The notes: generated from the sequence alone by a model not told the origin. Shown: positions 3,328-51,220, counted from the stretch's first letter. The stretch: 64,000 nucleotides of DNA from Cyanobium sp. (GCA_044359075.1 JBIKMU010000011.1:7306-71305); one strand, 5' to 3'. Translations and numbers: made by a program.

Positions 3328-5091
3328 GTGCCTCCAGCCCAGGATTCACCGCAGCAGCCGGCCCCCCCGGGACCCCAGATACCCTTCCGCCACACCCCAG
3401 GCCCTGGCGGTGCCGGCCGGCGTCAATGCCCGCCGTTTCTCGGCCCGCCCCGCCTCGGCCCACCGCGCCTGGGCCCACCGCGCCTGGGTTCGAAATGCCA
3501 GCGCCCACCACGCCAGCGCCCGGCGCTCATCGCCACCTCTCTCCTGCTTGGCATTTGCCTTGCGGCCTGCCAGCCGGCCCGGCCGCCCGGCAGCCTGATC
3601 GTCGGCCAGGCCAGCCGCATTGATTCGCTGGATCCGATCAAGGCCTCGCGGGTGGGCGTGATGCAGGCCCTGGCGGCCCTGGGCGATCCGCTCTATTCGA
3701 TCGAAGCCGATGGCCGCATCGAACCGCGCCTGGCCACCGCCTTGCCCCGGCTCAGTGGCGATGGCCTGCGGGCCCGCATCCCCCTGCGCCAGGACGTCCT
3801 CTTCCACGACGGCAGCCGCTTTGATGCGGATGCCCTGGTGTTTTCGCTGCAGCGTTTCATCAAGTCCGGCACCTTGGGCTTCCAGCTGGGCGATCGGGTT
3901 GAGGCGGTGCGGGCCGTGGGGCCCTACGAAGTGGAACTCAGCCTCAAGCGTCCTTTCGCCCCGCTGCCGCGCCTGCTGTCGGCCATCTTCCTAACCCCCG
4001 TCTCCCCCACCGCCTACAAGAACCACCGCGATAAACCCCTCAACGAGCGTTTTGTTGGCACCGGGCCCTATCGGCTGGCCTATTTCAGCCAGCAACAGCA
4101 GCGACTGGTGCCCTTCGAGCGTTACTGGGGGCGCCGTCCCGCCAATGGCGGCCTGACGCTCACCACCTACAGCAACTCCACCTCCCTGCTGGGGGGCCTG
4201 CGCAGCGGCGAAATCGACCTGCTGCTATCTAGCAGCCTCGAAATCGACCACCAGCTGGCCCTGCACCAGAGCGCCCAAAGGGGAGAATTCAAAGAAGGGG
4301 TGGGTCCCGCCCTGGACATCGGCTTTCTCTCCCTGCTCACCAGCCAGCCCCCCCTCGACAACCCGACCCTGCGCCAGGCGATCGCCGCCAGCCTCGACCA
4401 CGAACTGATCCAGCAACGGGTCAGCCTGGGGATGCGGCCCAGCCTGCGCAGCCTGGTGCCGCCCTCCCTGCCTGGTGCCGACCCCGAGGCCTGGCCCGCC
4501 TTCAACCCCGAGCGTGCCCGCAGCCTCTACAAAAAGGCCGGCTATTGCGACGGCAAGCGCCTCAGCCTGCCGCTCACCTTTCTCTCCGATGTGCCCACCG
4601 ACCGGCTGTTTGCCCTCACCTGGCAGAGCCAGCTGAAACGGGACCTGGATGATTGCGTGCGCCTGGAAGTGAGCGGCATGGAATCAACCACCGCCTATTC
4701 GCAACTCGATAAGCAGGCGTTCCCGATGATCTTGATCAACTGGATGGGGGATTATCCAGATGCAGAAAACTACCTCTCCCCCATGCTCGGTTGCACCAAG
4801 CCCCAGGGCAATCGCTGTCTGGAGGGGGGCAGTGCCCTCAGCGGCAGCTTCTGGACGGCCCCCGGCCTGGACGCCCAGCTGCAACGCAGCAGCGAACTGG
4901 CGGGCCCCGAACGCCTAGCGCTGCTGCAAGCGATCCAGCGGCGGGCGGCCGATGGCGTGCCCTACCTGCCTGTGTGGGTGGTGCGGCCAGCCGCCTGGGC
5001 CCGGCCCCAGCTGGAGGCGCCCCGCTTTGATGGTTCTGGCCGGGTGCTGCTCTCCCAATTGCGCCCGACCAAAGCCGGAGGCCAACGATGA
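3328..5091 (+). CDS. peptide/nickel ABC transporter substrate-binding protein (true start probably downstream)
   Basis: SBP family 5 motifs (LRQDVLFHDGS, VGTGPY); lipoprotein-like LAAC; adjacent permease. Confidence 0.88.
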   Translation: MPPAQDSPQQPAPPGPQIPFRHTPGPGGAGRRQCPPFLGPPRLGPPRLGPPRLGSKCQRPPRQRPALIATSLLLGICLAACQPARPPGSLIVGQASRIDSLDPIKASRVGVMQALAALGDPLYSIEADGRIEPRLATALPRLSGDGLRARIPLRQDVLFHDGSRFDADALVFSLQRFIKSGTLGFQLGDRVEAVRAVGPYEVELSLKRPFAPLPRLLSAIFLTPVSPTAYKNHRDKPLNERFVGTGPYRLAYFSQQQQRLVPFERYWGRRPANGGLTLTTYSNSTSLLGGLRSGEIDLLLSSSLEIDHQLALHQSAQRGEFKEGVGPALDIGFLSLLTSQPPLDNPTLRQAIAASLDHELIQQRVSLGMRPSLRSLVPPSLPGADPEAWPAFNPERARSLYKKAGYCDGKRLSLPLTFLSDVPTDRLFALTWQSQLKRDLDDCVRLEVSGMESTTAYSQLDKQAFPMILINWMGDYPDAENYLSPMLGCTKPQGNRCLEGGSALSGSFWTAPGLDAQLQRSSELAGPERLALLQAIQRRAADGVPYLPVWVVRPAAWARPQLEAPRFDGSGRVLLSQLRPTKAGGQR

Positions 5092-6107
5092 ACCGCCGCC
5101 GCCAACTGCTGAGCTACGCGGCCTCCCGGCTGGCCCTGGCGCCGGTGATGTTGTGGCTGATCGCCAGCCTGGTGTTTCTGCTGTTGCGTCTGGCCCCCGG
5201 CGATCCAATCGACGCCCTGCTGGGCCCCCGGGCCCCCGAGGCGGTGCGGGCCGCCCTCAGGCAGCAGTTGGGACTCGACCAACCCCTGGCCCAGCAGTAC
5301 CTGGGGTTCATGGGCAAGTTGCTGCACGGCGATTTGGGCCTGTCCCTCAGCAACCAGGAGCCGGTGAGCCGCATCATTGGCCAAAGCCTGCCCGCCAGCC
5401 TGGAGCTGGGGGTGGTGGCCCTCAGCCTCGCCGCCGTGCTGGGGCTGGCGGTGGGCTTCAGCGGCATCGCTCGCCCCGAGGGGCGGCTCGATCTGGCGGG
5501 GCGCCTGTTTGGCATCGGCACCTACGCCCTGCCGCCCTTCTGGGCCGCCATGGTGCTGCAGCTGGTCTTCGCCGTGGGGTTGGGCTGGCTGCCGGTGGGC
5601 GGCCGATTCCCCGCCACCATCGAACCCCCATCCGGCAGCGGCTTCTATCTCTTCGACAGCCTGCGGGCCGGCAACGGCGCCCAGTTTCTCGGCGCCCTGC
5701 GCCACCTGGTGCTGCCGGCCTGCACCCTGGGACTGCTGCTGAGCGGCATCTTCACCAACGCCCTTCGCCTCAACCTGCGCCGCGCCCTCGATTCCGACTA
5801 TGTCGAGGCGGCCCGCAGCCGCGGCCTGGACGAACGGCGCGTGGTGCTGCGCCACGGCCTGCCCAACGCCCTGCTGCCGGTGCTCACGATCGCCGGCATC
5901 ACCGTCGCCTCCCTGATCGGCGGCGCCCTGCTGATCGAGGTCACCTATTCCTGGCCCGGCGTCGCCCACCGCCTCCAAGAAGCCATCGCCCAGCGCGACT
6001 ATCCCCTGGTGCAGGGCATCGTCGTCGTCGTCGCCGCCCTGGTGGTGCTGGTCACGGTGGCGGTGGATCTGCTGGTGGCCTGGCTGGATCCGAGGGTGAG
6101 TTTTTAG
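5088..6107 (+). CDS. peptide ABC transporter permease (DppB/OppB-like)
   Basis: APGDPIDALLG, EAA loop (DYVEAARSRGL), RDYPLVQG; overlaps the SBP stop. Confidence 0.92.
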   Translation: MNRRRQLLSYAASRLALAPVMLWLIASLVFLLLRLAPGDPIDALLGPRAPEAVRAALRQQLGLDQPLAQQYLGFMGKLLHGDLGLSLSNQEPVSRIIGQSLPASLELGVVALSLAAVLGLAVGFSGIARPEGRLDLAGRLFGIGTYALPPFWAAMVLQLVFAVGLGWLPVGGRFPATIEPPSGSGFYLFDSLRAGNGAQFLGALRHLVLPACTLGLLLSGIFTNALRLNLRRALDSDYVEAARSRGLDERRVVLRHGLPNALLPVLTIAGITVASLIGGALLIEVTYSWPGVAHRLQEAIAQRDYPLVQGIVVVVAALVVLVTVAVDLLVAWLDPRVSF

Positions 6108-6278
6108 GTTCTGCCGAGTCCGGTGCAAGAAATCGAGCTTGCTCTCTGGTCATTGTCCGCAGCGCCGTACAACACTTGGAAACCTGCGCAGGGGTAAGGG
6201 GGCCCAGCTGAGGCCCCTACGAGTAACTGCTTGCTGAAGTGCCTTGAAGCTAAAGCATTTGCTGCAGGAATCTTTAGG

Positions 6279-6365
6279 CCATAACGCTCCAGATCAGAAG
6301 CGGGCATAGCAGCATATCTTAGTTAAGCATCCTTCGCACCCGCCTTCTGCATCTGGATGTTAGGC
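6279..6365 (-). mobile_element. attC-like site A (87 bp)
   Basis: Minus strand: GCCTAAC-5nt-GAT[G]CAGAA[G]GCGGG ... CCCGCTTCTGATC-6nt-GTTATGG; inverted arms with two extrahelical bases. Confidence 0.8.
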
Positions 6366-6603
6366 GCTGATCATCAGCCAGAGTGCCCTCGGCAACGCTC
6401 TTTACAAGTCATAAGAAATAGTTGCCATTTCACTGAGTGTGACACTCCAACCATTCGAAGCTTTCAAGCTGCTGTCCGCAGGTTGACAACCCAATCAGTA
6501 AAACCCAGCGATCTTACGCAGGGTGCCTGTGGCATAGAAAATGTACTGAGACATAAGGCTACCTACTCTAGTGGTTTCAATGGGCGGAATGAACAGAGTC
6601 AGG

Positions 6604-9516
6604 TTATATCTTTACTTCTCGTCTCCGACGATTGAGCGCCTCTAAAAGAAGATTAAAGGATTCATCATCTAGTCCGCAACGCAGATCAAGACATGCGTAG
6701 CTTCGCAGGAATGGCGGCATATTGTCAAGAATTCCATTTGGAAGCAGTACAGGAATTATCTGCTGGCTCCTTTCATCCCGTTTAATCAGAATTGCATCCA
6801 ATTCTGTTTTCATCCACTCCCCGGGTAGAGATTGGCCAATGCATACCAAGTACGATGAAGCAGATTCCACTGCATCTCTTAATGATCGATTGATAGAATC
6901 ACCTGGCTTGAGTTGCCATTGGTCAAACCAAACACGAAAACCTGAATCTGTTAACTTTTCGACGAGAGTCCGCACAAAAGCTTTATCTTGATAACTATAA
7001 GAAACAAAAATATCGAAACGCGCATTTGCAGTTATTTTTAATGCCTCCACATGCCGTCCGGTCGATTGCAAAAGAACTACCAGATTGTTTTTTATGCGGG
7101 TAGCCACCGGGGTGTCACGCCCCAAAGTATAGTCAAGAATATCAAGCGCGCGTCGCAGCATCACCTCAGCTTCATCAATACGTTTGACCTCCATGTAAGT
7201 TTCCGCAAGGCTATTTAGTTGCAAAACGACTGGGGCTGACTGAAGACCGTTGGAACTCTGGGCTTCATCAAGTGCTTTATTATATAAAAGAATAGCCTCT
7301 TCACTGCGGCCAGATTCCCTGTAAAGGCCCGCGAGGTTGTTGTATGCAGCAATGACCGTTGGATCACCAGGCCGACCGGATGTTTCTGCCATACTTAGCG
7401 CACGTCGATACCACTCGGCTGCCTCATCGCTACGTCCCATTTCGCGGTAAAGACCTGCCAGATTGTTGTATGCAGCAATGACCGCTGGGTCACCATGCCG
7501 ACCGGATGATTCTGCCATACTTAGCGCACGTCGATACCACTCGGCTGCCTCATCGCTACGACCCAGTTCGCGGTAAAGACCTGCCAGATTGTTGTATGCA
7601 GCAATGACCGCTGGGTCACCAGGCCGACCGGATGCTTCTGCCATACTTAGCGCACGTCGATACCACTCGGCTGCCTCATCGCTACGACCCATTTCGCGGT
7701 AAAGACCTGCCAGATTGTTGTATGCAGCAATGACCGCTGGGTCACCAGGCCGCCCGGACGTTTCTGCCATACTTAGCGCACGTCGATACCACTCGGCTGC
7801 CTCATCGCTACGACCCATTTCTCGGAAGAGACCTGCCAGATTGTTGTATGTGGCAATGACAGCTGGGTCACCAGACCGCCCGGACATGTCTGCCATACTT
7901 ATACTTAGCGCACGTCGATACCACTCAGCGGCCTCATCGCTACGACCCATTTCTCGGTAAAGACCTGCCAGATTGTTGTATGTGGCAATGACCGCTGGGT
8001 CACCAGGCCGCCCGGACATTTCTGCCATACTGAGCGCACGTCGATACCACTCAGCAGCCTCATCGCTTCGCCCCATTTCTCGGTAAAGACCTGCCAGATT
8101 GTTGTATGTGGCAATAACCGCTGGATCACCATTCTTCTCGGTCGTCTCCGCCATCTTGAGGGCACGAAGATACCAGTCAATTGCTTCATTTCCTCGGCCC
8201 GTTTGGCGGCATGCGTTGGCTAGCTGACTGTAGATTCCTAATAGCTCAAGTGGTTCAGAGACAGATCCTATTTCTACGATTTGTCGAAAAAGGGACTCCG
8301 CCTCGCTCAACCGCCCGCTTGTCATGAGCAACTCAGCAAGATGATTCATGCTCGATCGCACCATGGGATGGCTCAGTCCTAAAGAATCGATGCTGATAGC
8401 AAGCGCTCTTCGCAAATATGTTTCAGCTAGTCCAAAACGCTGTTGACGCAGCAAGGAGACCCCGGCCTCTGTTAACAGATCAGAGAACTTGGGCGAAACA
8501 CCTATCTCTGTTTCGATATCCACCATTAATCGCTCGATGGCCTGTTCGTCAAGTGGCAAAGAGGCGAGTGTAGAGCGTAAGTCAGCAATAGCGCCCAAAC
8601 GTTCAGCGCTTTCAGGAGAAATGATCTTCTGCACGTCTTGAAAATCGCTCACCAAGAGCCTAGTTACGTTCTCCAAATAAAAACCTGGGAACTCCGGGTC
8701 GGTCGTGCCTTGCGAAATTACCGGCAGCGGCTCTCCAAAACTAAACTTAGTTATGTATGGAATCTTCGTCAGTTCAAGAATAAGACGGGATTCGATTCCT
8801 TTTGGTAGCCATTCGTCATAGAATGGTTTTAGTCCCTGAGCAAATCGTTGCAGCCAAGCTTGTGCTTCATCTACTTCATCTCTTCCGTCAAACCGGCCAG
8901 GAAGTGGAAGTACCGCAATAGGTGGCCTAGGAACTGCCAAGTGCCGCCTTGCCTCTTGAACTCCGTTAGCAATCTGCACGCCCCTTTCAAAACTCTGCTC
9001 ATTCGCAGAGAAGACTAGAACCAAGATATCTGGCAAATAGATAGTACAGACTCCACCTGTATCCGTGATGCCCGTTCGGCTATCAATCAACACATAGTCA
9101 TATCGTCTCTTCCATTCGGCTCTCCAGCGATTCAACAAATCTCCACCCGCATAATCTTCAAAGAATCTGTTCCAATCAAAACTCCGGACTCGCTCGATAT
9201 AGCCGGGAGCTTGATCTCCGCTAGCAATCAGATCGATAGGCTCGCAATCAGAAATGAGCACTTGACTGACATATGATGACCAATCAACAACTGAATTGGT
9301 CTCAACGCTGTTAAGAAGGTGGATGAGGCCTTCCGACTTCGGCACAGCATTGTGTAAGTAGGGCTTAAAATAGCGGTGCAAACCTGGGGCTTCTAAATCC
9401 CAATCCATAAGTAGTACACGCTTTCCTCGTTTAGCGAGAAGCACCGCTATATTTGCTAGGGCGAAGGTTCGTCCTACTCCGCCCTTATACGAATAGAATG
9501 TGATGATGCGGCTCAT
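6604..9516 (-). CDS. ParA/MinD-like KGGVGRT ATPase - TPR array - TIR domain fusion (970 aa)
   Basis: ITFYSYKGGVGRT, LLMDWDLEAPGL, LIDSRTG; 42-aa TPRs; C-terminal FDIFVSYS..WFDQWQLKPGD..EWMKTEL TIR; ATG at 9516 overlaps the upstream stop (ATGA). Confidence 0.88.
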   Translation of the reverse strand: MSRIITFYSYKGGVGRTFALANIAVLLAKRGKRVLLMDWDLEAPGLHRYFKPYLHNAVPKSEGLIHLLNSVETNSVVDWSSYVSQVLISDCEPIDLIASGDQAPGYIERVRSFDWNRFFEDYAGGDLLNRWRAEWKRRYDYVLIDSRTGITDTGGVCTIYLPDILVLVFSANEQSFERGVQIANGVQEARRHLAVPRPPIAVLPLPGRFDGRDEVDEAQAWLQRFAQGLKPFYDEWLPKGIESRLILELTKIPYITKFSFGEPLPVISQGTTDPEFPGFYLENVTRLLVSDFQDVQKIISPESAERLGAIADLRSTLASLPLDEQAIERLMVDIETEIGVSPKFSDLLTEAGVSLLRQQRFGLAETYLRRALAISIDSLGLSHPMVRSSMNHLAELLMTSGRLSEAESLFRQIVEIGSVSEPLELLGIYSQLANACRQTGRGNEAIDWYLRALKMAETTEKNGDPAVIATYNNLAGLYREMGRSDEAAEWYRRALSMAEMSGRPGDPAVIATYNNLAGLYREMGRSDEAAEWYRRALSISMADMSGRSGDPAVIATYNNLAGLFREMGRSDEAAEWYRRALSMAETSGRPGDPAVIAAYNNLAGLYREMGRSDEAAEWYRRALSMAEASGRPGDPAVIAAYNNLAGLYRELGRSDEAAEWYRRALSMAESSGRHGDPAVIAAYNNLAGLYREMGRSDEAAEWYRRALSMAETSGRPGDPTVIAAYNNLAGLYRESGRSEEAILLYNKALDEAQSSNGLQSAPVVLQLNSLAETYMEVKRIDEAEVMLRRALDILDYTLGRDTPVATRIKNNLVVLLQSTGRHVEALKITANARFDIFVSYSYQDKAFVRTLVEKLTDSGFRVWFDQWQLKPGDSINRSLRDAVESASSYLVCIGQSLPGEWMKTELDAILIKRDERSQQIIPVLLPNGILDNMPPFLRSYACLDLRCGLDDESFNLLLEALNRRRREVKI
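7300..8130 (-). repeat. intragenic array of about 7 near-identical 126-bp TPR-coding repeats
   Basis: Unit GRPGDPAVIAAYNNLAGLYREMGRSDEAAEWYRRALSMAETS; one unit has a 6-bp duplication (atacttatactt near 7895). Confidence 0.95.
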
Positions 9517-10136
9517 GGAATTGGCAGGACAAGTGATGGAACAGTGTTCTGAGATTGCATGCGGATCTTGAATAAACCTTCGAATTGCGTGTGTGCTACT
9601 TGCTCCCACGCGGGATCGAAGGCTGGTGATGCAGCCAGTGCTTGTTCAATCGAGACACAAAGTTTACCTTTCAGCACTTCAGCCATGGCCTCCTGCTTCG
9701 GGCTGTCTGGTCGCATGAAAGGGTTGGCGAATGAGTGAAGCTGCTCTCCCTGCATCGCCTGCACCTCAGGTGGAAAACAATCCCCGTCATCTATCACAAC
9801 AGGGAAGATAAGCCCCCTCGGGTTTTCGGCTGTTCTCAGATTGACTGTCTTCTCACGGTGACGCATTAGCGCTAGCTCTAGTCTGCACCAATCGCTTTGG
9901 AAGTACTCTCGGCTCAAAACGGCAACCATTATGCGGGAACGAGAAAGACTCATGGCGAGGTGATTGGGCCACGAAGCTCCGTCATCAATCGTCTCGTCCA
10001 CGAATACATTTACCTGACCCAAGCGCACCCGCAGCAACGATGTCAAAGCTCGGACGAAATTCTCCCGCGTCCAGCGCACCCAGTCGATATCAGAGCGTCT
10101 GTAGCTGATGAAGATGTCATTTTCATAGTCGGACAT
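9513..10136 (-). CDS. standalone TIR-domain protein (207 aa)
   Basis: DIFISYRRSD, VFVDETIDDGASW, LSREYFQSDWCRLEL (catalytic-type Glu present), LIFPVV. Confidence 0.88.
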   Translation of the reverse strand: MSDYENDIFISYRRSDIDWVRWTRENFVRALTSLLRVRLGQVNVFVDETIDDGASWPNHLAMSLSRSRIMVAVLSREYFQSDWCRLELALMRHREKTVNLRTAENPRGLIFPVVIDDGDCFPPEVQAMQGEQLHSFANPFMRPDSPKQEAMAEVLKGKLCVSIEQALAASPAFDPAWEQVAHTQFEGLFKIRMQSQNTVPSLVLPIP

Positions 10137-10692
10137 AATGCTGTTGCTGCTGATTACGAAACTCTTGAACTGGTTGAGAGGGCATTCTGCCACGGAGTCC
10201 GGCCATGCCGTGGGGCGCGAGGTGATTGACTATGTTACATTGCTACACAGCCACTTAATCCAATCTATAGAAATTAACACTCCGACTTTGGTAGTATTTA
10301 GTCTATTTTCAACCACCAGAGAAATCCTCAAGAAATTCACCCCCGAATGACAAGAATAAGGAAAACGCGCGATAGCTCTCAATAATACAGCAGGGGCATT
10401 ATGCCTGCGCCTAGCATAGGGAATCTTTGCAAGGCGTATAAAGAGACACTGATTGCAATAGTGAGTTCCGTACTAAGAAAGCCGCTCTTTAGTCAATACT
10501 GAAGGAGTTCAGCATGAAGCTTGCTGATATGGCCGATGCAGAAGAAATGACAACCTAGAAAAGATGTCATTGATTGATCAGATTAGCTGAAGATACGCCT
10601 GCATTAAGCTTGATTCTCATTATAGACCCAAGCGGCAGAGGGCGATGATTTTCACTATTTTCTCGGTGGGCGGTCCGCCTTTGTCATCAAGT

Positions 10693-10798
10693 GCCCAACG
10701 CCCGTGCTGTGCCTTTTCGTGGACGAGGCGTGATCGCTGCTCTTCATCCGCAGCATCCATGCCGCAGCCGTGAAATAAGCACCTGTACTTCGTTGGGC
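10693..10798 (-). mobile_element. attC-like site B (106 bp)
   Basis: Perfect inverted termini GCCCAAC/GTTGGGC, 5- and 6-nt spacers, imperfect arms with bulged C and T on the + strand hairpin; begins 7 nt after the stop at 10806. Confidence 0.72.
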
Positions 10799-10805
10799 TT
10801 CCGGT

Positions 10806-11432
10806 TCATTTTTTCCGCACCAGAGCTTCAAAGCTTTTTCTGTCCAATTGAGCAAAATGCTTGCTGTTGCGAATTGATTCGGGCAGATGTTCCCAGATGC
10901 CATTTTCTTTCAGCCAATGATTGAGACATCCAAGGAAGACGTTTTGGACGCTCCAAGCATCATCCTGCAGATCGTGCAAGAAGGTGTTTAGATTCTCAAT
11001 CCGCTCTTTGCTCTCGAGACCATGCTCCGCAGTGGTGAACATGTTGTGGACAAACGTGTTCCGTTTCTGAAGGAAACCAACTAAAATCTGATCAAACTGT
11101 GGGTGCAACTGCGAGGTCTTCCGGACTTCGTGAAGAAGTTGTCCAAGCGTCCGCTTGTTCTTGGACATGTCCTTTCCCGATAGGTCATCGAACGTGAAAT
11201 CGGTCGTTTCGCGGAGGATGAACTGAATGGCCATTTTGATGGCGTGCTCGGCCATCTGGATCATGTAGAGGGTGGCACCGATTTCCTGAAATGCCTTGTG
11301 CTGCATCGGGGTCAAGTCAGGGTAGATAGAGTAGTCCCATGGTGCTTTGCCGGTTTCGTCCTTCTTTTGCGGATCGTGACGGGTCTTCAATATCCGGATG
11401 GAGTCATGATCAAGTTGTGGCTTGTCGGTCAT
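10806..11432 (-). CDS. putative HEPN-like domain protein (gene cassette)
   Basis: IG..YMIQMAEHAIK, RTLGQLL and RNTFVH (Rx4H) motifs; ATG 9 nt after the GTTGGGC core of site C. Confidence 0.6.
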   Translation of the reverse strand: MTDKPQLDHDSIRILKTRHDPQKKDETGKAPWDYSIYPDLTPMQHKAFQEIGATLYMIQMAEHAIKMAIQFILRETTDFTFDDLSGKDMSKNKRTLGQLLHEVRKTSQLHPQFDQILVGFLQKRNTFVHNMFTTAEHGLESKERIENLNTFLHDLQDDAWSVQNVFLGCLNHWLKENGIWEHLPESIRNSKHFAQLDRKSFEALVRKK

Positions 11433-11441
11433 GTTGATTGA

Positions 11442-11528
11442 GCCCAACGCTCAAGATCAGAACCGAGCATGTGGCGATGGCACATGACAGGAACTGAAGC
11501 TCCCGTCTTCTGCATCAGGATGTTAGAT
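11442..11528 (-). mobile_element. attC-like site C (87 bp)
   Basis: Minus strand: ATCTAAC (contains the TAA stop of the upstream ORF)-5nt-GAT[G]CAGAA ... TTCTGATC-6nt-GTTGGGC; same L boxes as site A. Confidence 0.82.
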
Positions 11529-11993
11529 CTCACCGCGATGACCTTTGGTGATCTGCTTTTCGGCGTAACCGGCGTCATATATGGCGAGCAATCTGATTTG
11601 ATTCAATCGAGCGATCCTGGCCTCAATCGTCGCGGGGTCTGTGGCAACGCGATCGCCCCGCTCAAAGGCGATGGATATGGCTTCCATTGCTTGAATTTGC
11701 TTCCAGATTTCATTATAGTCCTTCTCCATGCGACTACAAGTTGCTTCATAAGCCTCGAGCATTGCATGCGATTCGCTGTCGGATGTGTCAATAAAATTCT
11801 TGACTTGGTCGATGCTGTCGGCCAATTCATTCTTAGTCTGCTGGCATGCTACAAGCGCCTCGCCGAGACGGCGCGCAAGATCCGTTCGGTGTTGTCGTCT
11901 CAGATTTAAGAAAGTTTCAACTCTCGTCCAGCCGCTCACAAGGAACGCCAAGATTGAAATTGCAAGGCCCCATTCTGCTGTTGTCATCGTCAT
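11523..11993 (-). CDS. hypothetical protein with N-terminal TM anchor and helical body (gene cassette)
   Basis: 156-aa ORF, WGLAISILAFLVSGW hydrophobic helix; stop inside the attC inverse core. Confidence 0.65.
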   Translation of the reverse strand: MTMTTAEWGLAISILAFLVSGWTRVETFLNLRRQHRTDLARRLGEALVACQQTKNELADSIDQVKNFIDTSDSESHAMLEAYEATCSRMEKDYNEIWKQIQAMEAISIAFERGDRVATDPATIEARIARLNQIRLLAIYDAGYAEKQITKGHRGEI

Positions 11994-12611
11994 CAGCTGA
12001 GTTCTGCCATGTGAGCCCCAACATAGAATATGCGGACTCGCATATCATGAGCAATCCGGCGATTGCTGCATATCCCACAGGAACTTGATATCTTTGATGC
12101 TTTGAGAGCCAAGGCTATGGCAGACATCCTAGGGAATCGATCTGGTTCGGCGGAGTATATGCTGGTTCAGTCTATCACGCTTCAACCACGCCTTGCAGGC
12201 CTTGTCTAGCGAGGACCAGGGGAAGCCGAGCTATGGGTATTGTTTGGATCTAGAGATAAGCCAAAGCTATTATCTGCATGAAGATAGATTATTCGTTTTG
12301 TGCCTTCACTAGTCTTAGCTGTGCACTTCCTGCAATAGCTTATAGGAGCAATTTTTGCGATTCTTGTTTATCTATTCTACTTGTTCAGCGAAGCAGGGTG
12401 TGCGCACTTGCCAAGTGCCCTCGATTCCCCAGGCGGCGAATAAGATAGCAATCCAATCAATATCAACACCAACAATTCCTTGATTTGAACCAACTTGCCA
12501 GCTGAAATTTGATCACAACTCCCGCTGACAACAAAGTTGCATATTAGACACAAACGATCCCCAATGACTTAGGATTATACTGAAATTATCTCCACAACCC
12601 AGGCTCAGCCA

Positions 12612-13724
12612 ATGACCATGCAAGCAGCCGTTCAAGCCTATTACGGCCAAGAACTGAGCAGCAGCGCTGATCTCAAGACCACAGCCTGCTGCGATGCCGA
12701 TGCTGTGCCTGCCTGGCTGAGGCCCCTGCTGGCCAAAGTGCATCCAGAGGTAACTAGCCGTTATTACGGCTGCGGCCTGGTCTGCCCAGCCCAGCTCAGT
12801 GGCTGCCGCATCCTTGATTTGGGCAGTGGTTCCGGCCGCGATGCCTACCTTTTGTCCCAACTTGTCGGGCCCGGGGGCTCCATCGTCGGTGTCGACATGA
12901 CGGTTGAACAACTTGCCATTGCCCGTCAATACACCGAATTCCATGCCCAGCAGTTCGGCTACGCCAATGTCTCCTTCCTGAATGGCACCATCGAGAAGCT
13001 CGCAGATTTAGACCTGGAGCCGGAAAGCTTCGATGTGATCATCTCCAATTGTGTGCTCAACCTCTCCACCGACAAGGCCGCAGTGCTCAAAGGTGTGCAG
13101 CGCTTGCTTAAGCCTGGGGGTGAATTTTACTTCGCCGATGTCTACACAGATCGGCGCCTGCCCGATGCCCTGCGCAGTCATCCCGTGCTTTACGGCGAGT
13201 GCCTGGGGGGCGCCCTTTACTGGCAGGACTTCCTGCGCATGGCCAGATCAGCGGGTTTCCCGGATCCCCGTCTGGTCAGTAATCACCCCATCAGCATCAC
13301 CGATGCAAAACTGGCGCCCCTAGTGGGCCTGGCCCGCTTCGAATCAACCACCTATCGGCTATTCAAAATCAACGGCCTGGAAGAGGCATGCGAAGACTAC
13401 GGCCAAGCCGTGATCTATCGCGGCACGCTGCCGCAGCACCCCGATCGCTTCCCCCTGGACCACCACCATGTCCTCGAAACGGGCAGGACTTTGCCGGTGT
13501 GTGGCAACACCTATCGCCTGCTCCACCAAAGCCGCTTCCACGAGCACTTTGACTTCATTGGCGACTTCAGCCGCCACTTCGGACCCTTCCCGGGTTGCGG
13601 CAGCCTCTCACCCTTTAAAAATCCGGCACCAGGAGCCGCAGCCACAGACCCAGCCCCAACACCGGCCGCAACTCCCACACCGACACCAGCCCCAGCACCG
13701 GCACCGGCATCCTCCTGTTGCTGA
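12612..13724 (+). CDS. arsenite methyltransferase-like (ArsM/AS3MT family) SAM methyltransferase
   Basis: TTACC, RYYGCG, LDLGSGSGRD, ISNCVLNL, LYGECLGGA, C-terminal CC. Confidence 0.8.
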   Translation: MTMQAAVQAYYGQELSSSADLKTTACCDADAVPAWLRPLLAKVHPEVTSRYYGCGLVCPAQLSGCRILDLGSGSGRDAYLLSQLVGPGGSIVGVDMTVEQLAIARQYTEFHAQQFGYANVSFLNGTIEKLADLDLEPESFDVIISNCVLNLSTDKAAVLKGVQRLLKPGGEFYFADVYTDRRLPDALRSHPVLYGECLGGALYWQDFLRMARSAGFPDPRLVSNHPISITDAKLAPLVGLARFESTTYRLFKINGLEEACEDYGQAVIYRGTLPQHPDRFPLDHHHVLETGRTLPVCGNTYRLLHQSRFHEHFDFIGDFSRHFGPFPGCGSLSPFKNPAPGAAATDPAPTPAATPTPTPAPAPAPASSCC

Positions 13725-27018: not shown

Positions 27019-27852
27019 ATGAGCGAGAGCACCAACCCAACCACCAACCCAACCACCAGCCCAACCACCAGCCCGGCCACCAATCCGGCCACCATCGTGC
27101 CGCTGGCCAACGCCGACGCCGACGAGTTTCCCGGCGAGGTGGAAATGAGCCTGGTGGACCACCTGGAGGAACTGCGCCGCCGCGTGCTGCGCAGCCTGCT
27201 GGCGGTGGTGGCGGCGGCGGGCCTGTGCCTGGTGTTCGTCAAACCGCTGGTGAAGCTGCTGGAGGTGCCTGCTGCCGGCATCCGTTTTCTGCAACTGGCC
27301 CCTGGGGAGTTCCTGTTGGTCTCCTTGAAAGTGGCCGGTTATGCGGGCCTGACCCTGGCCTTGCCCTACGTGTTATTTGAGGGATTGGCCTTTGTTTTGC
27401 CCGGCCTGACCCGGCGCGAGCGACGCCTGGTGGCACCGGCGGTGGCGGGTTCCAGCGTGCTGTTCGCCGCCGGCCTGGCCTTCGCCTGGTGGGCCCTGGT
27501 GCCGGCGGCCCTGCGCTTTTTGGTCAGCTACGGGGCTGACGTGGTCGAACCGCTCTGGTCGATCGAGCGCTACTTGGATTTCGTGCTGCTGCTGCTGCTG
27601 GCCACCGCCCTTGCCTTCCAATTGCCGGTGCTGCAGCTTTTGCTGGGTGCCCTGGGGCTGATCAACGCCAAGGTGATGCTGGCGGCCTGGCGCTGGGTGG
27701 TGCTGGCCAGTGCCCTGGCCGGCGCTGTGCTCACCCCCTCCACCGATCCGATCACGATGCTGCTGCTCAGCGGCGCCATCACGGCCCTCTATCTGGTGGG
27801 GGTGGCCCTGGTGAGCCTGGTCCAGGGAGTCAAACCGCAGGCCACCACCTAG
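27019..27852 (+). CDS. tatC: twin-arginine translocase subunit TatC
   Basis: EMSLVDHLEELRRR, APGEF, TPSTDPITM; low-complexity (TNPT/TSPT) N-terminus. Confidence 0.95.
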   Translation: MSESTNPTTNPTTSPTTSPATNPATIVPLANADADEFPGEVEMSLVDHLEELRRRVLRSLLAVVAAAGLCLVFVKPLVKLLEVPAAGIRFLQLAPGEFLLVSLKVAGYAGLTLALPYVLFEGLAFVLPGLTRRERRLVAPAVAGSSVLFAAGLAFAWWALVPAALRFLVSYGADVVEPLWSIERYLDFVLLLLLATALAFQLPVLQLLLGALGLINAKVMLAAWRWVVLASALAGAVLTPSTDPITMLLLSGAITALYLVGVALVSLVQGVKPQATT

Positions 27853-27928
27853 GTTCGCTGCCGTCACCCCCGTGCCGATGGCCGTCTCCAGCCCCCCCCC
27901 GTCCCCTGCCGACTGCCCCAACGTCGCC
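27802..27928 (+). repeat. 127-bp direct repeat copy 1 (tatC 3' end plus ampG 5' start); copy 2 at 29509-29635
   Basis: gtggccctggtgagcctggtccagggagtcaaaccgcaggccaccacctagg... occurs twice, 1707 bp apart, with a few mismatches. Confidence 0.92.
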
Positions 27929-28373
27929 ATGCACTGGAACTGGTGGCATTTTGCCAGCATTGATTACAACTGCGATGATCCCAATTTCCATGCCATCTGG
28001 CGCATGAAAGACAGCGGCTTGCCAATAATGTGGATACGGAAAAAGGAAATTACGACTATCTAATGGGTTGTGATCTCAACATGAATCACCCCGAGGTCAG
28101 CGGCGAGCTCAAACACTGGGGCAAGTGGATGCTTAACAGCATCGGCATCGAAAGCTTCCGCCTGGATGCGCTTAAACACATCGACGGCAATTTCTGCATC
28201 GACTGGATCAGCGACCGCGAAACACACTGTGGCCATAAACTATTTGTCGCGGCGAATACTGGAGCTACGACCTGGCCTGCATCAACTGGTATTTCAGCAA
28301 AACCGCTGGCAATATGTCACTGTTTGACGCCCCCCCTCCATCTCAACTCGGTGTCTGCCTGGGTCGAAGCCGC
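27929..28373 (+). pseudogene. degenerate alpha-amylase fragment (copy of about 31666-32086 joined to about 32653-32678)
   Basis: Roughly 93% identical by eye to the intact gene; 1-bp indels cause frameshifts; internal deletion. Confidence 0.9.
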
Positions 28374-29172: not shown

Positions 29173-29508
29173 CGGATGAGTTGCGCTTGAATTTCTTCTC
29201 AAATATCATCTGATTTATTAGAGCTGCGGCGAAATTGCTTCTGCCGCCTGTCCTCACACCCCAGGGCTGAACCGCCGTCTTGACACGCTCACCTTCACCG
29301 CCCAGGCCATGGCCACCGCGGGACTCACCCTCACCGCGGTGATCAGTTTCCCCATCCCCGCGACAACCCCCACGGCAGGCCATGCCACCTGGGTCTGCTT
29401 CGCGATCGCCCTGGTGGCGATCCTGCTGGTGCACCGCCATCGCGGTGCCCACGCCGAACTGGCCGCCCTGCTGTCTGTGACAACGCCGCGCAGGTCCGCT
29501 TTGTTGGT

Positions 29509-29635
29509 GTGGCCCTGGTGAGCCTGGTCCAGGGAGTCAAACCGCAGGCCACCACCTAGGTTCGCTGCCGTCACCCCCGTGCCGATGGCCGTCTCCAGCC
29601 CCCCCCAGTCCCCTGCCGGCGGCCCCAGCGTTGCC
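29509..29635 (+). repeat. 127-bp direct repeat copy 2 (second tatC 3' end, leading into intact ampG)
   Basis: Matches 27802-27928. Confidence 0.92.
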
Positions 29636-31224: not shown

Positions 31225-32703
31225 ATGATGCAATGGTTTCATTGGTATAGTGATGGCGATGGCAATCACTGGCGGCGTTTAATCGAGGCTGCGCCAGAGT
31301 TGGCGGCCGCAGGCATCACGGCCCTATGGCTGCCCCCAGCCTCCAAGGGCAATGCCGGTGGCTACGACGTCGGCTATGGCTGCTACGACCTGTTTGATCT
31401 TGGTGAGTTTGATCAAAAGGGAACTATCAGGACCAAATACGGCACCAGGGATGAGTATCTGGCTGCCATCAAAATCTGCCACGGGCTGGGCATACAGATC
31501 TACGCCGATGTGGTTTTTAACCACAAGATGGGAGCCGATTTTGAAGAAGATTTTCAGGCAATTCCCTTTGACGATAACAATCGCACCATCGATCTTGGCC
31601 CCTGCCGCCCGGTGCGCGCCTGGACAGGCTTTAACTTTTCAGCCCGCGAGGACAAATACTCAACCATGCACTGGAACTGGTGGCATTTCGCCAGCATTGA
31701 TTACAACTGTTATGATCCCAACTTCCATGCCATCTGGCGCATGAAAGACAGCGGCTTTGCCAATAATGTAGATACGGAAAAAGGCAATTACGACTATCTA
31801 ATGGGTTGTGATCTCAACATGAATCACCCCGAGGTCAGCGGCGAACTCAAGCACTGGGGCAAGTGGATGCTGGACAGCATCGGCATCGATGGCTTCCGCC
31901 TGGATGCGCTTAAACACATCGACAGCAATTTCTTCATCGACTGGATCAGCGACCTGGAAACTCACTGTGGCCATAAACTATTTATCGTCGGCGAATACTG
32001 GAGCTACGACCTGGGATGCCTCAGCTGGTATATCAGTAAAACCGCTGGCAAGATGTCACTGTTTGACGCCCCCCTCCATCTCAACTTTCACCAAGCCAGC
32101 CGCGGCCAGGGGCACTACAACATGGCCAACCTGCTGACGGGCACCTTGATGCAAACCCTGCCATGCTTTGCGGTCACGGTGGTCGAAAACCACGACACCC
32201 AGCCCCTGCAAGCGCTTGAATCCGTAGTCGAGGCCTGGTTCAAGCCCCTCGCCTACGCCTGCATCCTGCTAAGGGCCGAAGGCTATCCCTGTATTTTTTA
32301 TCCAGATTATTACGGCGCTAATTATAAAGACAAGGGCCAGGACGGCAACGACTACGAAATCTCACTTCCCAGCCACCGGGCCAGTATCGACCGCCTGCTA
32401 CTGGCCCGCCGCCATTTTGCCTTCGGCCCCCAAAAGGATTACTTTGACCATTTCAGCACGGTGGGCTGGAGCCGCCTGGGCAGTGCACAACACCCCCATG
32501 CCATGGCCGTATTGATGAGTAACGGCGACGCCGGCTTCAAGTGGATGGAAGTTGGCAAACGCGACACCGCGTTCATCGATTGCACCGGCCATCTCGGCGG
32601 CACGATCACCAGCAACCAGGATGGCTGGGCCGAATTCCACTGCCCAGGCGGTTCGGTGTCGGTCTGGGTCGAAGCCGCCGCTTACCAGGCACTGCAATCC
32701 TGA
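31225..32703 (+). CDS. amyA: alpha-amylase (GH13, bacterial/cytoplasmic type)
   Basis: MMQWFHWY, DVGYGCYDLFDLGEF, GFRLDALKHI, VGEYW, VENHDTQP. Confidence 0.93.
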   Translation: MMQWFHWYSDGDGNHWRRLIEAAPELAAAGITALWLPPASKGNAGGYDVGYGCYDLFDLGEFDQKGTIRTKYGTRDEYLAAIKICHGLGIQIYADVVFNHKMGADFEEDFQAIPFDDNNRTIDLGPCRPVRAWTGFNFSAREDKYSTMHWNWWHFASIDYNCYDPNFHAIWRMKDSGFANNVDTEKGNYDYLMGCDLNMNHPEVSGELKHWGKWMLDSIGIDGFRLDALKHIDSNFFIDWISDLETHCGHKLFIVGEYWSYDLGCLSWYISKTAGKMSLFDAPLHLNFHQASRGQGHYNMANLLTGTLMQTLPCFAVTVVENHDTQPLQALESVVEAWFKPLAYACILLRAEGYPCIFYPDYYGANYKDKGQDGNDYEISLPSHRASIDRLLLARRHFAFGPQKDYFDHFSTVGWSRLGSAQHPHAMAVLMSNGDAGFKWMEVGKRDTAFIDCTGHLGGTITSNQDGWAEFHCPGGSVSVWVEAAAYQALQS

Positions 32704-50029: not shown

Positions 50030-50401
50030 GGCCCAGGCAGGCAATCCAACAGCCAAAGCCTTCAAGCAGGGGGGGCAGGGGCTAACGGTAGAAGTTAAGG
50101 CAATTTACCAAAGGCCAGCAGGGCCATTTGTTAGACCAGATCTCAATTCGCTCGATAGATATCTATTTGAATTCTGCCTTGGCGCTAAAGAGCGAAAGAC
50201 CACAACATAACTCAAAGAATTTGCGTTCTTGTGGCACTATGCGCTTTTCCCGGGATCATGTCGCGTATTTTTGCGCGCAAGTTTATTCCATTTGCGCAAA
50301 TAAAATTGATTCATCGCAAGCAAATCGCTACTTTAGGAGAAATCAGTCTATAATTAAAGTGGGATTCTTACAGAATCCCTAAATGTTCTTTTTGATTAAT
50401 C

Positions 50402-51220
50402 ATGACCCATCTAATTAAAAAAAGTACTGTGGTCCTCAAAAATCGCTTACTGAAATCTGCTGCCACTTCAATCTTGGCACTCTCGGCCGCGACTGGAGCA
50501 CTCCTGGCCACCAGTACCAGTGTTTCAGCTCAAACTGCCCCACCCTTTGGTGCTTCCGTAGCAGGCCAAAATAAAAACATTTTTTACTTTACACCTTGGG
50601 GCAAACAGCTAGACAATGACAACACACCTAATGATCTACATGTTCCCGACACTGACTTGTCCGCGAACCCACAAGTAATTAACCACAACATATATGACAT
50701 CATGATCGATCCAAATACTCCCCTTGATTTTGAACTCTATCTTTATACGACCGCGCCGCAATATGTCGCCATCAATAATTTGCACAGCTTTTCATTCTTA
50801 ACTCAAGTAGATACAGGTGAATACAATTTAACTAACACTATTCTTGGCTCAGACATTGATAACTGTTCTGTGACCCCTATCGCCGGTGATCCTGCCGGAT
50901 TGCTCAATTGTCATTTCAAAGCGAATGTACAAGTTACGCCCGGTGCCTTTGCAAATCCAATTAAACTAGCCACTTTCAAGGGCATTACCGCAAACCCTGA
51001 TTTACATCCCGGCGATGGAACTTCAGATTTCAAAATAACACTTAATCAATTGACAGTCGGCTCCTCCGTTTCCTCCGTTAATGTTCCAGGGGTAGCTAAT
51101 CAATTCCAAGATGTAGAAGTTCAACGGGTTCCTGGCCCTCTTCCAATTCTGGGCGCGGCCGCAGCGTTCAGGTTCTGCCGCAAAGCACGCAAGTTATCTG
51201 CCCGAAACAAAACTGTCTGA
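50402..51220 (+). CDS. low-GC surface protein with cyanobacterial PEP-CTERM-like sorting signal
   Basis: Signal peptide (..ATSTSVSAQT) and C-terminal VPGPLPILGAAAAFRFCRKARKL. Confidence 0.8.
   Translation: MTHLIKKSTVVLKNRLLKSAATSILALSAATGALLATSTSVSAQTAPPFGASVAGQNKNIFYFTPWGKQLDNDNTPNDLHVPDTDLSANPQVINHNIYDIMIDPNTPLDFELYLYTTAPQYVAINNLHSFSFLTQVDTGEYNLTNTILGSDIDNCSVTPIAGDPAGLLNCHFKANVQVTPGAFANPIKLATFKGITANPDLHPGDGTSDFKITLNQLTVGSSVSSVNVPGVANQFQDVEVQRVPGPLPILGAAAAFRFCRKARKLSARNKTV

What the first reader, a model, noticed from the sequence alone, without database searches (positions are those of the whole stretch)
6279..11528. Integrase-less integron-type cassette array (CALIN-like) hidden in a cyanobacterial island
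Seen: three elements at 6279-6365, 10693-10798 and 11442-11528 share the canonical attC layout on the minus strand. That layout is an ..AAC inverse core, a 5-nt spacer, an L box with an extrahelical base, a variable loop, the second L box, a 6-nt spacer and a GTT.. core. Sites A and C share nearly identical L boxes (GATGCAGAA / TTCTGATC). Cassette grammar also holds: the TAA stop of the 11523-11993 ORF lies inside the ATCTAAC inverse core, the next ORF starts 9 nt after GTTGGGC, and site B begins 7 nt after that ORF's stop. Established: attC clusters without an adjacent intI are called CALINs, and integron cassettes have been reported to be rich in anti-phage genes. Inference: this island is a cassette array that captured defence cargo and could be remobilised in trans by an IntI encoded elsewhere.
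Basis: partly seen in the sequence, partly recalled or inferred. Interest (0 to 1): 0.85.

Follow-up and report, generated by a model that had tools for sequence, protein, structure and literature searches.

The report
Integrase-less integron cassette array in Cyanobium
A 6.4-kb low-GC island in a freshwater picocyanobacterium is a three-cassette integron array with no integrase nearby, one cassette carrying a predicted TIR-based anti-phage gene pair; it is a clear example of a known kind of element, not a new kind.

Summary
Sites A (6279-6365) and C (11442-11528) are minus-strand attC sites. A covariance model I built from 16 class 1 integron attC sites ranks them first and second in the 64-kb window. 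They belong to an 83-88-nt repeat family found in 46 stretches of public genomes, nearly all Cyanobium/Synechococcus. There the family forms same-orientation arrays and lies next to true integron integrases (TIGR02249, 405-463 bits). Site B (10693-10798) fails both models. However, it travels with its gene as a unit, with homology ending at its GTT, inside another cassette array. Each of the three cassettes recurs elsewhere with homology breaking at G|TT, one of them at an attI beside a decayed intI. Site A's GTT is fused to a codon of a disrupted chromosomal membrane-protein gene. A near-identical strain has other cassettes at the same junction. No intI lies in the window. Cargo: two unknown genes and a TIR plus KGGVGR-ATPase-TPR-TIR pair, a predicted and untested defence system. 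Cyanobacterial integrons, integrase-less attC clusters (CALINs) and defence cassettes are all published, so this is a new member of a known kind. The upstream end (12023-12429) is unresolved.

The parts
11442..11528 (-). attC site C. It has R'' ATCTAAC, L'' GAT[G]CAGAAG, L' GTTCTGATC and R' GTTGGGC, and closes cassette 1.
   Evidence: R1 gives 19.1 bits, the top hit in the window. R2 gives 65.5 bits. The same attC, loop included, follows the ORF156 homologue in L179.
10693..10798 (-). Site B, a non-canonical attC-like site of 106 nt. It has R'' GCCCAAC and R' GTTGGGC and closes cassette 2.
   Evidence: It fails R1 (2.8 bits) and R2. It is conserved downstream of the 92%-identical ORF208 homologue in the array L168-L171, and homology ends at its GTTGGGC. 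One inner stem differs on both arms and still pairs in both versions (read by eye): window GGATGCTGC/GCAGCGATC, L168 GGTGGCTGC/GCAGCCACC.
6279..6365 (-). attC site A. It has R'' GCCTAAC and R' GTTATGG, closes cassette 3, and its GTT is the junction with chromosomal DNA.
   Evidence: R1 gives 14.7 bits, the second-best hit. R2 gives 83.3 bits. A homologous attC (85% identity over window 6281-6388) follows the same gene pair in L180.
11448..12021 (-). Cassette 1: TTGGGGCTCAC..., ORF156 (11523-11993; predicted N-terminal membrane helix and coiled coil, read by eye; function unknown), then attC C up to its G.
   Evidence: In L179 the same cassette is the first one at an attI next to a decayed intI. 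Homology with the window begins right after GTT. There are no Pfam or NCBIfam hits above cut-off.
10699..11447 (-). Cassette 2: TTGGGCTCAATCAAC-ATG, ORF208 (10806-11432; function unknown), then site B up to its G.
   Evidence: Homologues at 92% identity in L168-L171 and 70% in L172-L175 keep GTTGGGCT(C/G)AATCAA(C/T)ATG upstream, with unrelated DNA before the GTT.
6285..10698 (-). Cassette 3 (4.4 kb): a decayed leader, the TIR protein (9513-10136, 207 aa), the KGGVGR-type AAA ATPase-TPR-TIR protein (6604-9516, 970 aa, ATGA overlap with the TIR gene), a 239-nt spacer, then attC A.
   Evidence: Pfam finds TIR_2, TPR and AAA_31/CbiA. NCBIfam finds AAA_KGGVGR at 146.9 bits against a cut-off of 90. 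PADLOC finds the candidate families PDC-M28B and PDC-S66. L180 carries the same unit between two family attCs, with homology starting at the GTT.
10238..10641 (+). Pseudogene remnant inside the cassette 3 leader. It is homologous to a 156-aa gene that lies on the opposite strand in L180, next to a ThsB-type TIR gene.
   Evidence: It is 69% identical at the DNA level to L180 2294-2702. The window copy has stops in all frames.
6250..6285 (-). 3' remnant (12 codons, now with an internal stop) of a chromosomal membrane-protein gene. It begins exactly at the GTT of attC A.
   Evidence: The window reads GTT ATG GCC TAA AGA TTC CTG CAG CAA ATG CTT TAG. L090 reads GTT AGG GCC TAT GGG TTA GTG CAG AAA ATG CTT TAG, the end of an intact 223-aa ORF. 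Homology stops at the AAC/GTT.
12430..12516 (-). 5' remnant (frameshifted) of the same membrane-protein gene, next to the arsM promoter region.
   Evidence: BLASTN gives 80-82% identity to L090/L091 upstream of arsM. The reading frame was compared by hand with the L090 ORF.
12022..12429 (.). Unassigned DNA between the first cassette's GTT (12020-12022) and the gene remnant. It holds no attC, attI or ORF.
   Evidence: There are no R1 or R2 hits, no Rfam hit, no significant fold and no similarity to Cyanobium attI regions. Positions 12021-12150 are conserved in another metagenome.
6108..6200 (-). Remnant of the 3' end of an HTH antitoxin gene, between the dppB stop and the membrane-gene remnant.
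   Evidence: It is shared with L018, where an intact Gp49/HTH pair sits at this position, and with L167.

Best explanation
The island (about 6108-12611, roughly 50% GC in a roughly 68% GC genome) is an array of three integron gene cassettes on the minus strand with no integron integrase nearby, i.e. a CALIN-type array.

Each cassette runs from the TT of one GTT core to the G of the next and ends in an attC site:
- Cassette 1: ORF156 plus attC C.
- Cassette 2: ORF208 plus site B.
- Cassette 3: a decayed leader, the TIR gene, the KGGVGR-ATPase-TPR-TIR gene, plus attC A.

Sites A and C belong to the attC family of the chromosomal integrons of freshwater Cyanobium/Synechococcus. In those integrons intI sits upstream of the array on the same strand as the cassettes.

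Shown: the cassettes are discrete units that occur in other arrays. The crossover positions are the G|TT of the attC cores. The last attC is fused at its GTT to a codon of a chromosomal membrane-protein gene between dppB and arsM.

Inferred: an IntI enzyme moved these cassettes from an integron into a secondary GTT site in that gene. Later attC x attC events changed the cassette content between strains. The cassettes could be excised again if an IntI is supplied in trans. The TIR/ATPase-TPR pair acts as an abortive-infection type anti-phage system.
For: attC identity:
- R1, built from class 1 attC sites, ranks C and A first and second in the window, on the minus strand with exact ends.
- The layout matches the published cyanobacterial attC model (Ghaly 2021, PMC8352920, Supplementary Data 1). 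That model has 87 positions, pairs 1-7:81-87, 13-15:72-74, 17-22:66-71 and 24-27:62-65, an unpaired G at 16 and an unpaired A at 23.

Family:
- The 5'-arm pattern finds 46 stretches, nearly all Cyanobium/Synechococcus. Arms are conserved, loops vary and flanks are unrelated.
- In the family alignment, 91% of cells pair.
- Same-strand arrays occur: four sites in L036, four in L054, three in L050, and two in many others.
- A top-strand ORF ends within -20..+6 nt of the attC start in 24 of 39 copies, against 9 of 39 on the opposite side. Eight use the TAA inside CTAAC as the stop.

Integrase link:
- IntI homologues about 50% identical to IntI1 lie in L059, L069, L038 and L078, with fragments in four more loci.
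- TIGR02249 scores are 463, 419 and 405 bits against a cut-off of 265.

Mobility of each cassette.

Locus comparison:
- In most relatives dppB abuts the DUF1400 gene.
- L089/L092 have dppB, 88 nt, then arsM.
- L090/L091 have an intact membrane gene between dppB and arsM.
- L167 has the same junction with other cassettes and two family attCs.

Other support:
- No intI and no tRNA lie in the window.
- Metagenome reads and contigs carrying the family arms have many different loops and flanks. Their homology ends at AAC/GTT.
Against: - Site B is not recognised by either covariance model, and IntegronFinder itself could not be run.
- E-values of the home-made class 1 model are modest and rough.
- The arms in the family alignment are nearly invariant, so there is no covariation support for the L and R helices.
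- The upstream end is not a clean junction. About 600 nt of the membrane gene are missing, and 12023-12429 is unexplained.
- The window population is clonal at this locus. No excision joints were seen, and the apparent joints are other family copies.
- No IntI is known for the source genome.
- The defence function is predicted only from domains and PADLOC candidate families.
Confidence: 0.9

Rival explanations
1. The array is the decayed remnant of a complete sedentary integron that once sat here. In this reading intI and attI were lost by deletion, and the cassettes did not arrive by insertion into a secondary site.
For: - About 600 nt of the target gene are missing, and an unexplained 400-nt stretch lies where an inverted-type intI/attI would be.
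- L179 shows that intI decay next to this very cassette does happen.
- intI fragments occur in four family loci.
Against: - tblastn finds no IntI remnant in the window with IntI1 or with the Cyanobium IntI proteins.
- There are no attI-like GGTTCNCGGA repeats in 12023-12460.
- The distal junction lies inside a chromosomal gene at a GTT, which fits secondary-site capture.
- Most relatives have no element at this locus.
Confidence: 0.15
2. A and C are copies of a structured dispersed repeat unrelated to integron recombination, such as a REP/MITE-like element or a terminator. In this reading the island arrived by another route.
For: - Most loci show only one or two copies per 8 kb.
- The arms are so conserved that covariation cannot be tested.
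- The published cyanobacterial model's sequence-only HMM gives only 7.0 bits for A.
Against: - The copies lie in same-strand arrays directly after ORF ends.
- They lie beside TIGR02249 integrases, and an attI ending in GTTAG is fused to a cassette.
- Unit boundaries fall at G|TT in four independent comparisons.
- A model built from proteobacterial class 1 attC sites finds them.
- The island holds no transposase, other integrase or tRNA.
Confidence: 0.03
3. Site B is not an attC. In this reading ORF208 and the TIR/ATPase genes form one 5.1-kb cassette between C and A, and B is an incidental hairpin or terminator.
For: - B fails both models.
- Its spacers are about 3 and 4 nt instead of 5 and 6, and it has no clear L boxes.
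- It is not a multicopy family in the metagenomes examined.
Against: - In L168-L171, ORF208 plus B sits without the TIR genes.
- In L180 the TIR unit sits without ORF208.
- Both breakpoints fall at B's GTTGGGC and at the GTT that starts the next unit.
- An inner stem of B pairs in both versions despite changes on both arms.
Confidence: 0.12

Closest known systems
CALIN (cluster of attC sites lacking an integron integrase; Cury et al. 2016, PMC4889954)
   Same: It has several attC sites in one orientation, each after a promoterless-looking ORF, with no intI nearby. The cassettes are not related to class 1-5 resistance cassettes. Secondary-site insertion is one of the origins that paper proposes.
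   Different: The operational rule needs at least two model-detected attC sites within 4 kb. Here the model-detected sites A and C are 5.08 kb apart, and the linking site B is non-canonical. One cassette is unusually long (4.4 kb, two genes plus a pseudogene).
Cyanobacterial chromosomal integron attC sites (taxon-specific 'Cyanobacteria' covariance model of Ghaly et al. 2021, PMC8352920)
   Same: The length is the same (87 positions). The helices, the 5/6-nt spacers, the unpaired G in L'' and the unpaired A before the Cggg helix all match. The consensus GcCUAAC..GcU[G]cAGCGGACggg compares with GCCTAAC..GAT[G]CAGAAGACGGG here.
   Different: The published CM could not be run because Infernal takes no external model here. 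Its sequence-only HMM gives a weak score. The L-box sequence (CAGAAG/CTTCTG) differs from the consensus (CAGCGG/CCGCUG) on both arms, so pairing is kept.
Integrons with intI on the same strand as the cassettes ('inverted' group, Treponema denticola type; from my own knowledge of Coleman 2004 and Boucher 2007, not checked here)
   Same: In L059, L069, L038, L078 and L179, intI, attI and the cassettes all read in one direction, with attI downstream of the intI stop.
   Different: This describes the relatives' platforms, not the window, which has no platform.
Anti-phage defence genes carried as integron cassettes (Kieffer et al., bioRxiv 10.1101/2024.07.02.601719; chromosomal integrons as biobanks, PMC12614218)
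   Same: A predicted defence module (TIR effector domains plus an NTPase-TPR sensor-like protein) is packaged as a cassette ending in an attC. Toxin-antitoxin cassettes (HicAB, Gp49/HTH) lie in the sister arrays.
   Different: The published cases are mobile integrons and Vibrio-type arrays, and they were tested against phages. Here the host is a picocyanobacterium, the function is untested, and the system matches only PADLOC candidate families (PDC-M28B, PDC-S66).
IntI-mediated cassette insertion at secondary (non-att) sites with a GTT/GWT core (Francia 1993; Recchia and Hall 1995; from my own knowledge)
   Same: The last attC is joined at G|TT to a GTT codon (GTTAGGG in the intact L090 gene) inside an unrelated chromosomal gene.
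   Different: The reciprocal junction is not intact, so a single clean insertion cannot be reconstructed.

Membership tests
attC recombination site (sites A and C) | Inverse core RYYYAAC at the 5' end and core GTTRRRY at the 3' end of the top strand | tested here: met
   A has GCCTAAC and GTTATGG. Two of the last four positions depart from RRRY, as expected for a junction with foreign DNA. C has ATCTAAC and GTTGGGC.
attC recombination site (sites A and C) | Paired L''/L' boxes with extrahelical base(s), and unequal spacers (5 nt and 6 nt) forming the unpaired central spacer | tested here: met
   GAT[G]CAGAAG pairs with CTTCTG-ATC in A and with GTTCTG-ATC in C, where the innermost pair is mismatched. 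The spacers are ATCCA/TGGAGC in A and ATCCT/TTGAGC in C. The A hairpin is the minimum-energy fold on both strands. For C the minimum-energy fold is taken over by flank pairing.
attC recombination site (sites A and C) | Detected by an attC covariance model | tested here: met
   My own CM from 16 class 1 attC sites gives C 19.1 bits and A 14.7 bits, ranks 1 and 2 in the window. The IntegronFinder model itself was not available.
attC recombination site (sites A and C) | Occurs in same-orientation arrays after ORFs and next to an integron integrase in some genomes | tested here: met
attC recombination site (sites A and C) | Recombined by IntI as a folded bottom strand | not testable with these tools
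   This needs an excision or suicide-conjugation assay with a Cyanobium IntI.
attC recombination site (site B) | Covariance-model detection and canonical L boxes and spacers | tested here: not met
   R1 gives 2.8 bits from the R box only and R2 gives no hit. The spacers are about 3 and 4 nt.
attC recombination site (site B) | Marks the end of a mobile cassette, with homology between contexts breaking at its GTT | tested here: met
   Shown by L168-L171 against the window and by the start of cassette 3 against L180.
CALIN (IntegronFinder definition) | At least two attC sites no more than 4 kb apart | tested here: inconclusive
   C and B are 644 nt apart, which meets the rule only if B counts. 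B to A is 4,328 nt and C to A is 5,077 nt, both above the default threshold and within the 10-kb setting also used in PMC4889954.
CALIN (IntegronFinder definition) | No integron integrase within the cluster distance | tested here: met
   tblastn finds no IntI1 homologue and no Cyanobium IntI homologue anywhere in the 64-kb window.
Complete integron | intI plus attI adjacent to the array | tested here: not met
   There is no intI and no attI-like repeats upstream of cassette 1.
Known anti-phage defence system (cargo of cassette 3) | Match to a validated system model | tested here: not met
   Only PADLOC candidate families match (PDC-M28B 80 bits, PDC-S66). Hits to ThsB and retron-TIR are weak. 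The FxSxx_TPR and FxsC_Nterm hits are below cut-off.

The most novel reading that the evidence does not exclude
Freshwater picocyanobacteria may run an active integron system of the 'inverted intI' type whose cassettes also seed integrase-less mini-arrays at secondary GTT sites in ordinary chromosomal genes. Such arrays would act as strain-variable anti-phage loci that stay exchangeable in trans. One multi-gene TIR/ATPase-TPR cassette is shared at about 80% protein identity with Nitrosomonas and Alphaproteobacteria. That would make integrons a route for cross-phylum flow of defence genes into cyanobacteria.
Probability: 0.35. Interest if true: 0.6.

Novelty: new member of a known kind. Interest (0 to 1): 0.45.

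Why it matters
Integrons are studied mostly in Proteobacteria and in resistance contexts. This locus gives a well-resolved natural example in an abundant freshwater phototroph. It shows three cassettes with exact G|TT boundaries and a chromosomal gene split at a secondary site. A sister strain has different cassettes at the same junction. Related platforms carry intI and attI that could be cloned for assays. It also nominates a two-gene TIR/KGGVGR-ATPase-TPR module and two unknown small genes as candidates for anti-cyanophage function. The concepts themselves (CALIN, cyanobacterial attC sites, defence cassettes) are already published.

Tried and rejected
1. nhmmer with the sequence-only HMM of the published cyanobacterial attC model. 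Site A scored only 7.0 bits (E 0.55) amid GC-rich noise and C matched only in part. I rejected it as a discriminating test. The full CM could not be run.
2. Reading metagenome 'joints' 6304-6309 to 11498-11502 as cassette deletions. I rejected this because each joint carries 26-30 nt of foreign loop sequence. They are other copies of the attC family.
3. Looking for an attC or attI upstream of cassette 1 (12012-12460). The fold is not significant. There are no model hits, no similarity to the attI regions of L038, L059 and L069, and no Rfam family.
4. BLAST of the island's non-attC DNA and its proteins against the 46 family loci found nothing.
5. Exact-protein contig look-ups for dppB, ORF208 and arsM returned the same island almost everywhere. 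The window population is clonal here, so variation had to be sought in more distant relatives.
6. The promoter/terminator consensus scan of the island gave fewer promoter-like sites than shuffles, so it was uninformative.
7. The R1 hit at 50080-50136 is R-box only, so I did not accept it as an attC.

Full report
**Setting**

The finding lies in a low-GC island (about 49-53% GC against about 66-71% in the flanks). The island sits between a dppB-type permease gene (5088-6107, +) and an arsM-like methyltransferase gene (12612-13724, +). All real genes of the island are on the minus strand:
- ORF156 (11523-11993).
- ORF208 (10806-11432).
- A 207-aa TIR protein (9513-10136).
- A 970-aa protein (6604-9516), overlapping the TIR gene by ATGA. 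It has a KGGVGR-type AAA ATPase domain, TPR repeats and a C-terminal TIR domain.

The window has no tRNA. It has no homologue of IntI1 or of the Cyanobium IntI proteins.

**Check of the observation**

Read on the minus strand, A and C are both 87 nt. Each consists of:
- an inverse core (GCCTAAC in A, ATCTAAC in C);
- a 5-nt spacer;
- GAT[G]CAGAAG with one unpaired G;
- an unpaired base, then CGGG;
- a variable loop;
- the complementary arm (CCCG-CTTCTG-ATC in A; CTCG-GTTCTG-ATC in C, which breaks one pair in each of the two helices);
- a 6-nt spacer;
- a GTT core.

The stop of ORF156 is the TAA inside ATCTAAC. ORF208 starts 9 nt after GTTGGGC. Site B starts 7 nt after the ORF208 stop.

Site B has a perfect GCCCAAC/GTTGGGC pair and folds as a long hairpin (z = -3.1 on the + strand). 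Its inner boxes and spacers are not canonical.

**Is it an attC by model?**

IntegronFinder is not available here, so I built a stand-in.
- I collected 16 attC sites from class 1 integron arrays on plasmids.
- I built a covariance model with the R and L helices (R1).
- Over both strands of the 64-kb window with filters off, the two best hits are C (19.1 bits, E 0.014) and A (14.7 bits, E 0.18).
- B is not found. Searched on its own, it scores 2.8 bits from the R box only.

The supplementary file of Ghaly et al. 2021 (PMC8352920) holds a taxon-specific 'Cyanobacteria' attC model.
- It has 87 positions and pairs 1-7:81-87, 13-15:72-74, 17-22:66-71 and 24-27:62-65.
- It has an unpaired G at position 16 and an unpaired A at position 23.
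- This is the architecture of A and C position for position.
- Its sequence-only HMM is a weak detector (A 7.0 bits), as expected for a site defined by structure.

**The family**

A scan of one genome per species for the shared 5' arm (CTAACATCCNGATGCAGAAG) gave 46 stretches. Nearly all are from Cyanobium, Synechococcus and unnamed Prochlorococcaceae genomes and MAGs.
- The elements are 83-88 nt. Arms are nearly invariant, loops vary, and flanks are unrelated right up to CTAAC and GTT.
- Pairing is kept in 91% of cells. The two outermost R-box pairs are unpaired in about half of the copies. This is what is expected if the bases after G|TT belong to the neighbouring cassette. There is no covariation, because the arms do not vary.
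- A model built from 42 copies, leaving out the window (R2), scores A 83.3 bits and C 65.5 bits on the minus strand. The next best is 19.7 bits, for A read on the + strand.
- In the fetched loci the hits form same-strand arrays 0.5-3 kb apart: four in L036, four in L054, three in L050 and two in many others.
- A top-strand ORF ends within -20..+6 nt of the element in 24 of 39 copies, against 9 of 39 on the other side. Eight use the TAA of CTAAC as the stop.

**The integrase**

- tblastn with IntI1 finds homologues of about 47-53% identity in L059 (Cyanobium sp. BSA11S, complete chromosome), L069, L038 and L078. It finds fragments in four more loci.
- Three of them score 463, 419 and 405 bits on TIGR02249 'integron integrase' against a cut-off of 265.
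- In every case intI is on the same strand as the attC top strand and upstream of the array.
- The region after the intI stop holds repeated GGTTCNCGGA motifs and ends in ...GTTAG. I read it as attI.

**Each cassette is a mobile unit**

Cassette 1:
- In L179, a decayed intI (the last ~38 codons, frameshifted) is followed by such an attI.
- At GTTAG|AGCTCACATGGCAGAACTCAGCTG the ORF156 gene follows, then an attC homologous to C including its loop (81 bits).
- The window reads GTTGGG|GCTCACATGGCAGAACTCAGCTG. Upstream of the GTT the two sequences are unrelated.

Cassette 2:
- In L168-L171, a 92%-identical ORF208 is preceded by ...GTTGGGCTCAATCAACATG, as in the window, with a different sequence before the GTT.
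- It is followed by a copy of site B.
- After that copy's GTTGGGC the sequences diverge.
- The same contigs continue with Avidin, RDD and Gp49/HTH genes, each followed by a family attC.
- One inner stem of B differs on both arms between the two copies yet still pairs in both (read by eye).

Cassette 3:
- In L180, the TIR gene and its ATPase-TPR partner (81% DNA identity over 3.6 kb) lie between the attC of a Trypsin_2 cassette and a HicAB cassette.
- Homology with the window starts at the GTT after the preceding attC.
- It ends with an attC homologous to A (75 bits).
- The L180 version is 2.2 kb longer. It has a ThsB-type TIR gene, a 156-aa gene and methylase fragments.
- The window's 'leader' (10238-10641) is the decayed remnant of that 156-aa gene.

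**The locus in relatives**

I fetched eighty metagenome loci with dppB homologues.
- In most (dppB about 72-85% identical), dppB abuts the DUF1400 hydrolase gene with neither arsM nor an island between.
- L089/L092 (96%) have dppB, 88 nt, then arsM.
- L090/L091 have an intact 223-aa membrane-protein gene on the minus strand between dppB and arsM.
- The window keeps the first ~90 nt of that gene (frameshifted) next to arsM, and its last 12 codons next to dppB.
- The 3' remnant begins exactly at the GTT of attC A. The window reads GTT ATG GCC TAA..., and L090 reads GTT AGG GCC TAT....
- L167 (dppB 99%) has the same remnants and the same junction. It has two family attCs and other cassettes: a 177-aa plus a 149-aa gene, and a weak RelA_SpoT-like 270-aa gene plus a 125-aa gene.
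- Similarity to the window stops at the R'' end of the attC.
- L088 and L018 carry yet other content after dppB, so the spot is a hotspot.

**Mechanism**

Shown:
- The unit boundaries fall at G|TT.
- The cassettes are shared with platform-linked arrays.
- The last attC is joined to a GTT codon of a chromosomal gene.
- The terminal cassettes differ between strains at a fixed junction.

Inferred:
- IntI-catalysed recombination between an attC and a secondary GTT site placed cassettes in the gene.
- Later attC x attC events changed the content.
- With no Pc promoter or intI nearby, expression must rely on internal promoters.
- Short metatranscriptome contigs at 97% identity or more lie on all four genes. 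They are few, carry no strand information, and may include DNA.
- The TIR/ATPase-TPR pair matches only candidate defence families. Its defence role is a prediction.

**What remains open**

- Site B lacks any model support.
- The stretch 12023-12429 is unexplained, and about 600 nt of the target gene are missing, so the arrival was not one clean insertion.
- The window population is clonal here, and no excision products were seen.
- Whether the source genome has an intI is unknown.
- Under the 4-kb rule of IntegronFinder, A may be reported as a single site apart from C and B.

**Novelty**

The following are all published:
- integrons in Cyanobacteria (PMC4889954, PMC2426708);
- a cyanobacterial attC model (PMC8352920);
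- CALINs;
- defence genes in cassettes (bioRxiv 10.1101/2024.07.02.601719).

A full-text search for 'integron' with 'Cyanobium' found no paper with either term in its title or abstract; I did not read the 12 that hold both words. This is therefore a well-documented new member of a known kind, of moderate interest.

Noticed in passing
window 7139-8326: The TPR region of the 970-aa gene is built of 126-nt tandem units. Metagenome variants encode 886 aa instead of 970 aa, so repeat number varies within the population.
   Followed up: partly
L183/L184 and window 6604-10136: The TIR protein is 81% identical to one in Nitrosomonas sp. Is35 and 72% identical to one in Aliiroseovarius. In Nitrosomonas it sits with the same ATPase-TPR partner but without family attC sites. 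This suggests cross-phylum transfer of the gene pair.
   Followed up: partly
window 6108-6200; L018 1585-2012: Directly after the dppB stop lies the remnant of an HTH antitoxin gene's 3' end. In L018 an intact Gp49 (HigB-like)/HTH pair occupies this position.
   Followed up: partly
window 12021-12150: This stretch is covered about 60-fold at 90-95% identity by reads of another freshwater metagenome that lacks the cassettes. Its left end coincides with the GTT that starts cassette 1.
   Followed up: partly
L038 5411-5590; L069 6934-7115; L179 285-600: The putative attI of Cyanobium integrons lies downstream of intI on the same strand. It has two to three GGTTCNCGGA(A/C)C repeats and ends in ..CCAAT(A/G)A..AGTTAG.
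   Followed up: partly
L088 3127-12633: In a strain with 98%-identical dppB, the same spot holds a different low-GC island with a 2310-aa gene and no family attC.
   Followed up: no
window 50080-50136: A GTCTAAC...GTTAGCC pair (R-box-only hit of the class 1 model, 11.9 bits) lies at the edge of another low-GC islet (about 50100-51200). I did not accept it as an attC.
   Followed up: partly
window 27796-28335 vs 29503-29635 and 31664-32074; 39331-39983: There are duplicated segments of 92-96% identity in two low-GC islets, and 27-nt RTX-like repeats (GGxGxD type at the DNA level) in a third. Further low-GC islets lie at 34-36 kb and 53-59 kb.
   Followed up: no
L172/L173 332-2381: A 70%-identical ORF208 homologue lies downstream of a tyrosine recombinase plus an IS91-type Y2 transposase pair. 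It keeps the GTTGGGCTGAATCAATATG leader.
   Followed up: no
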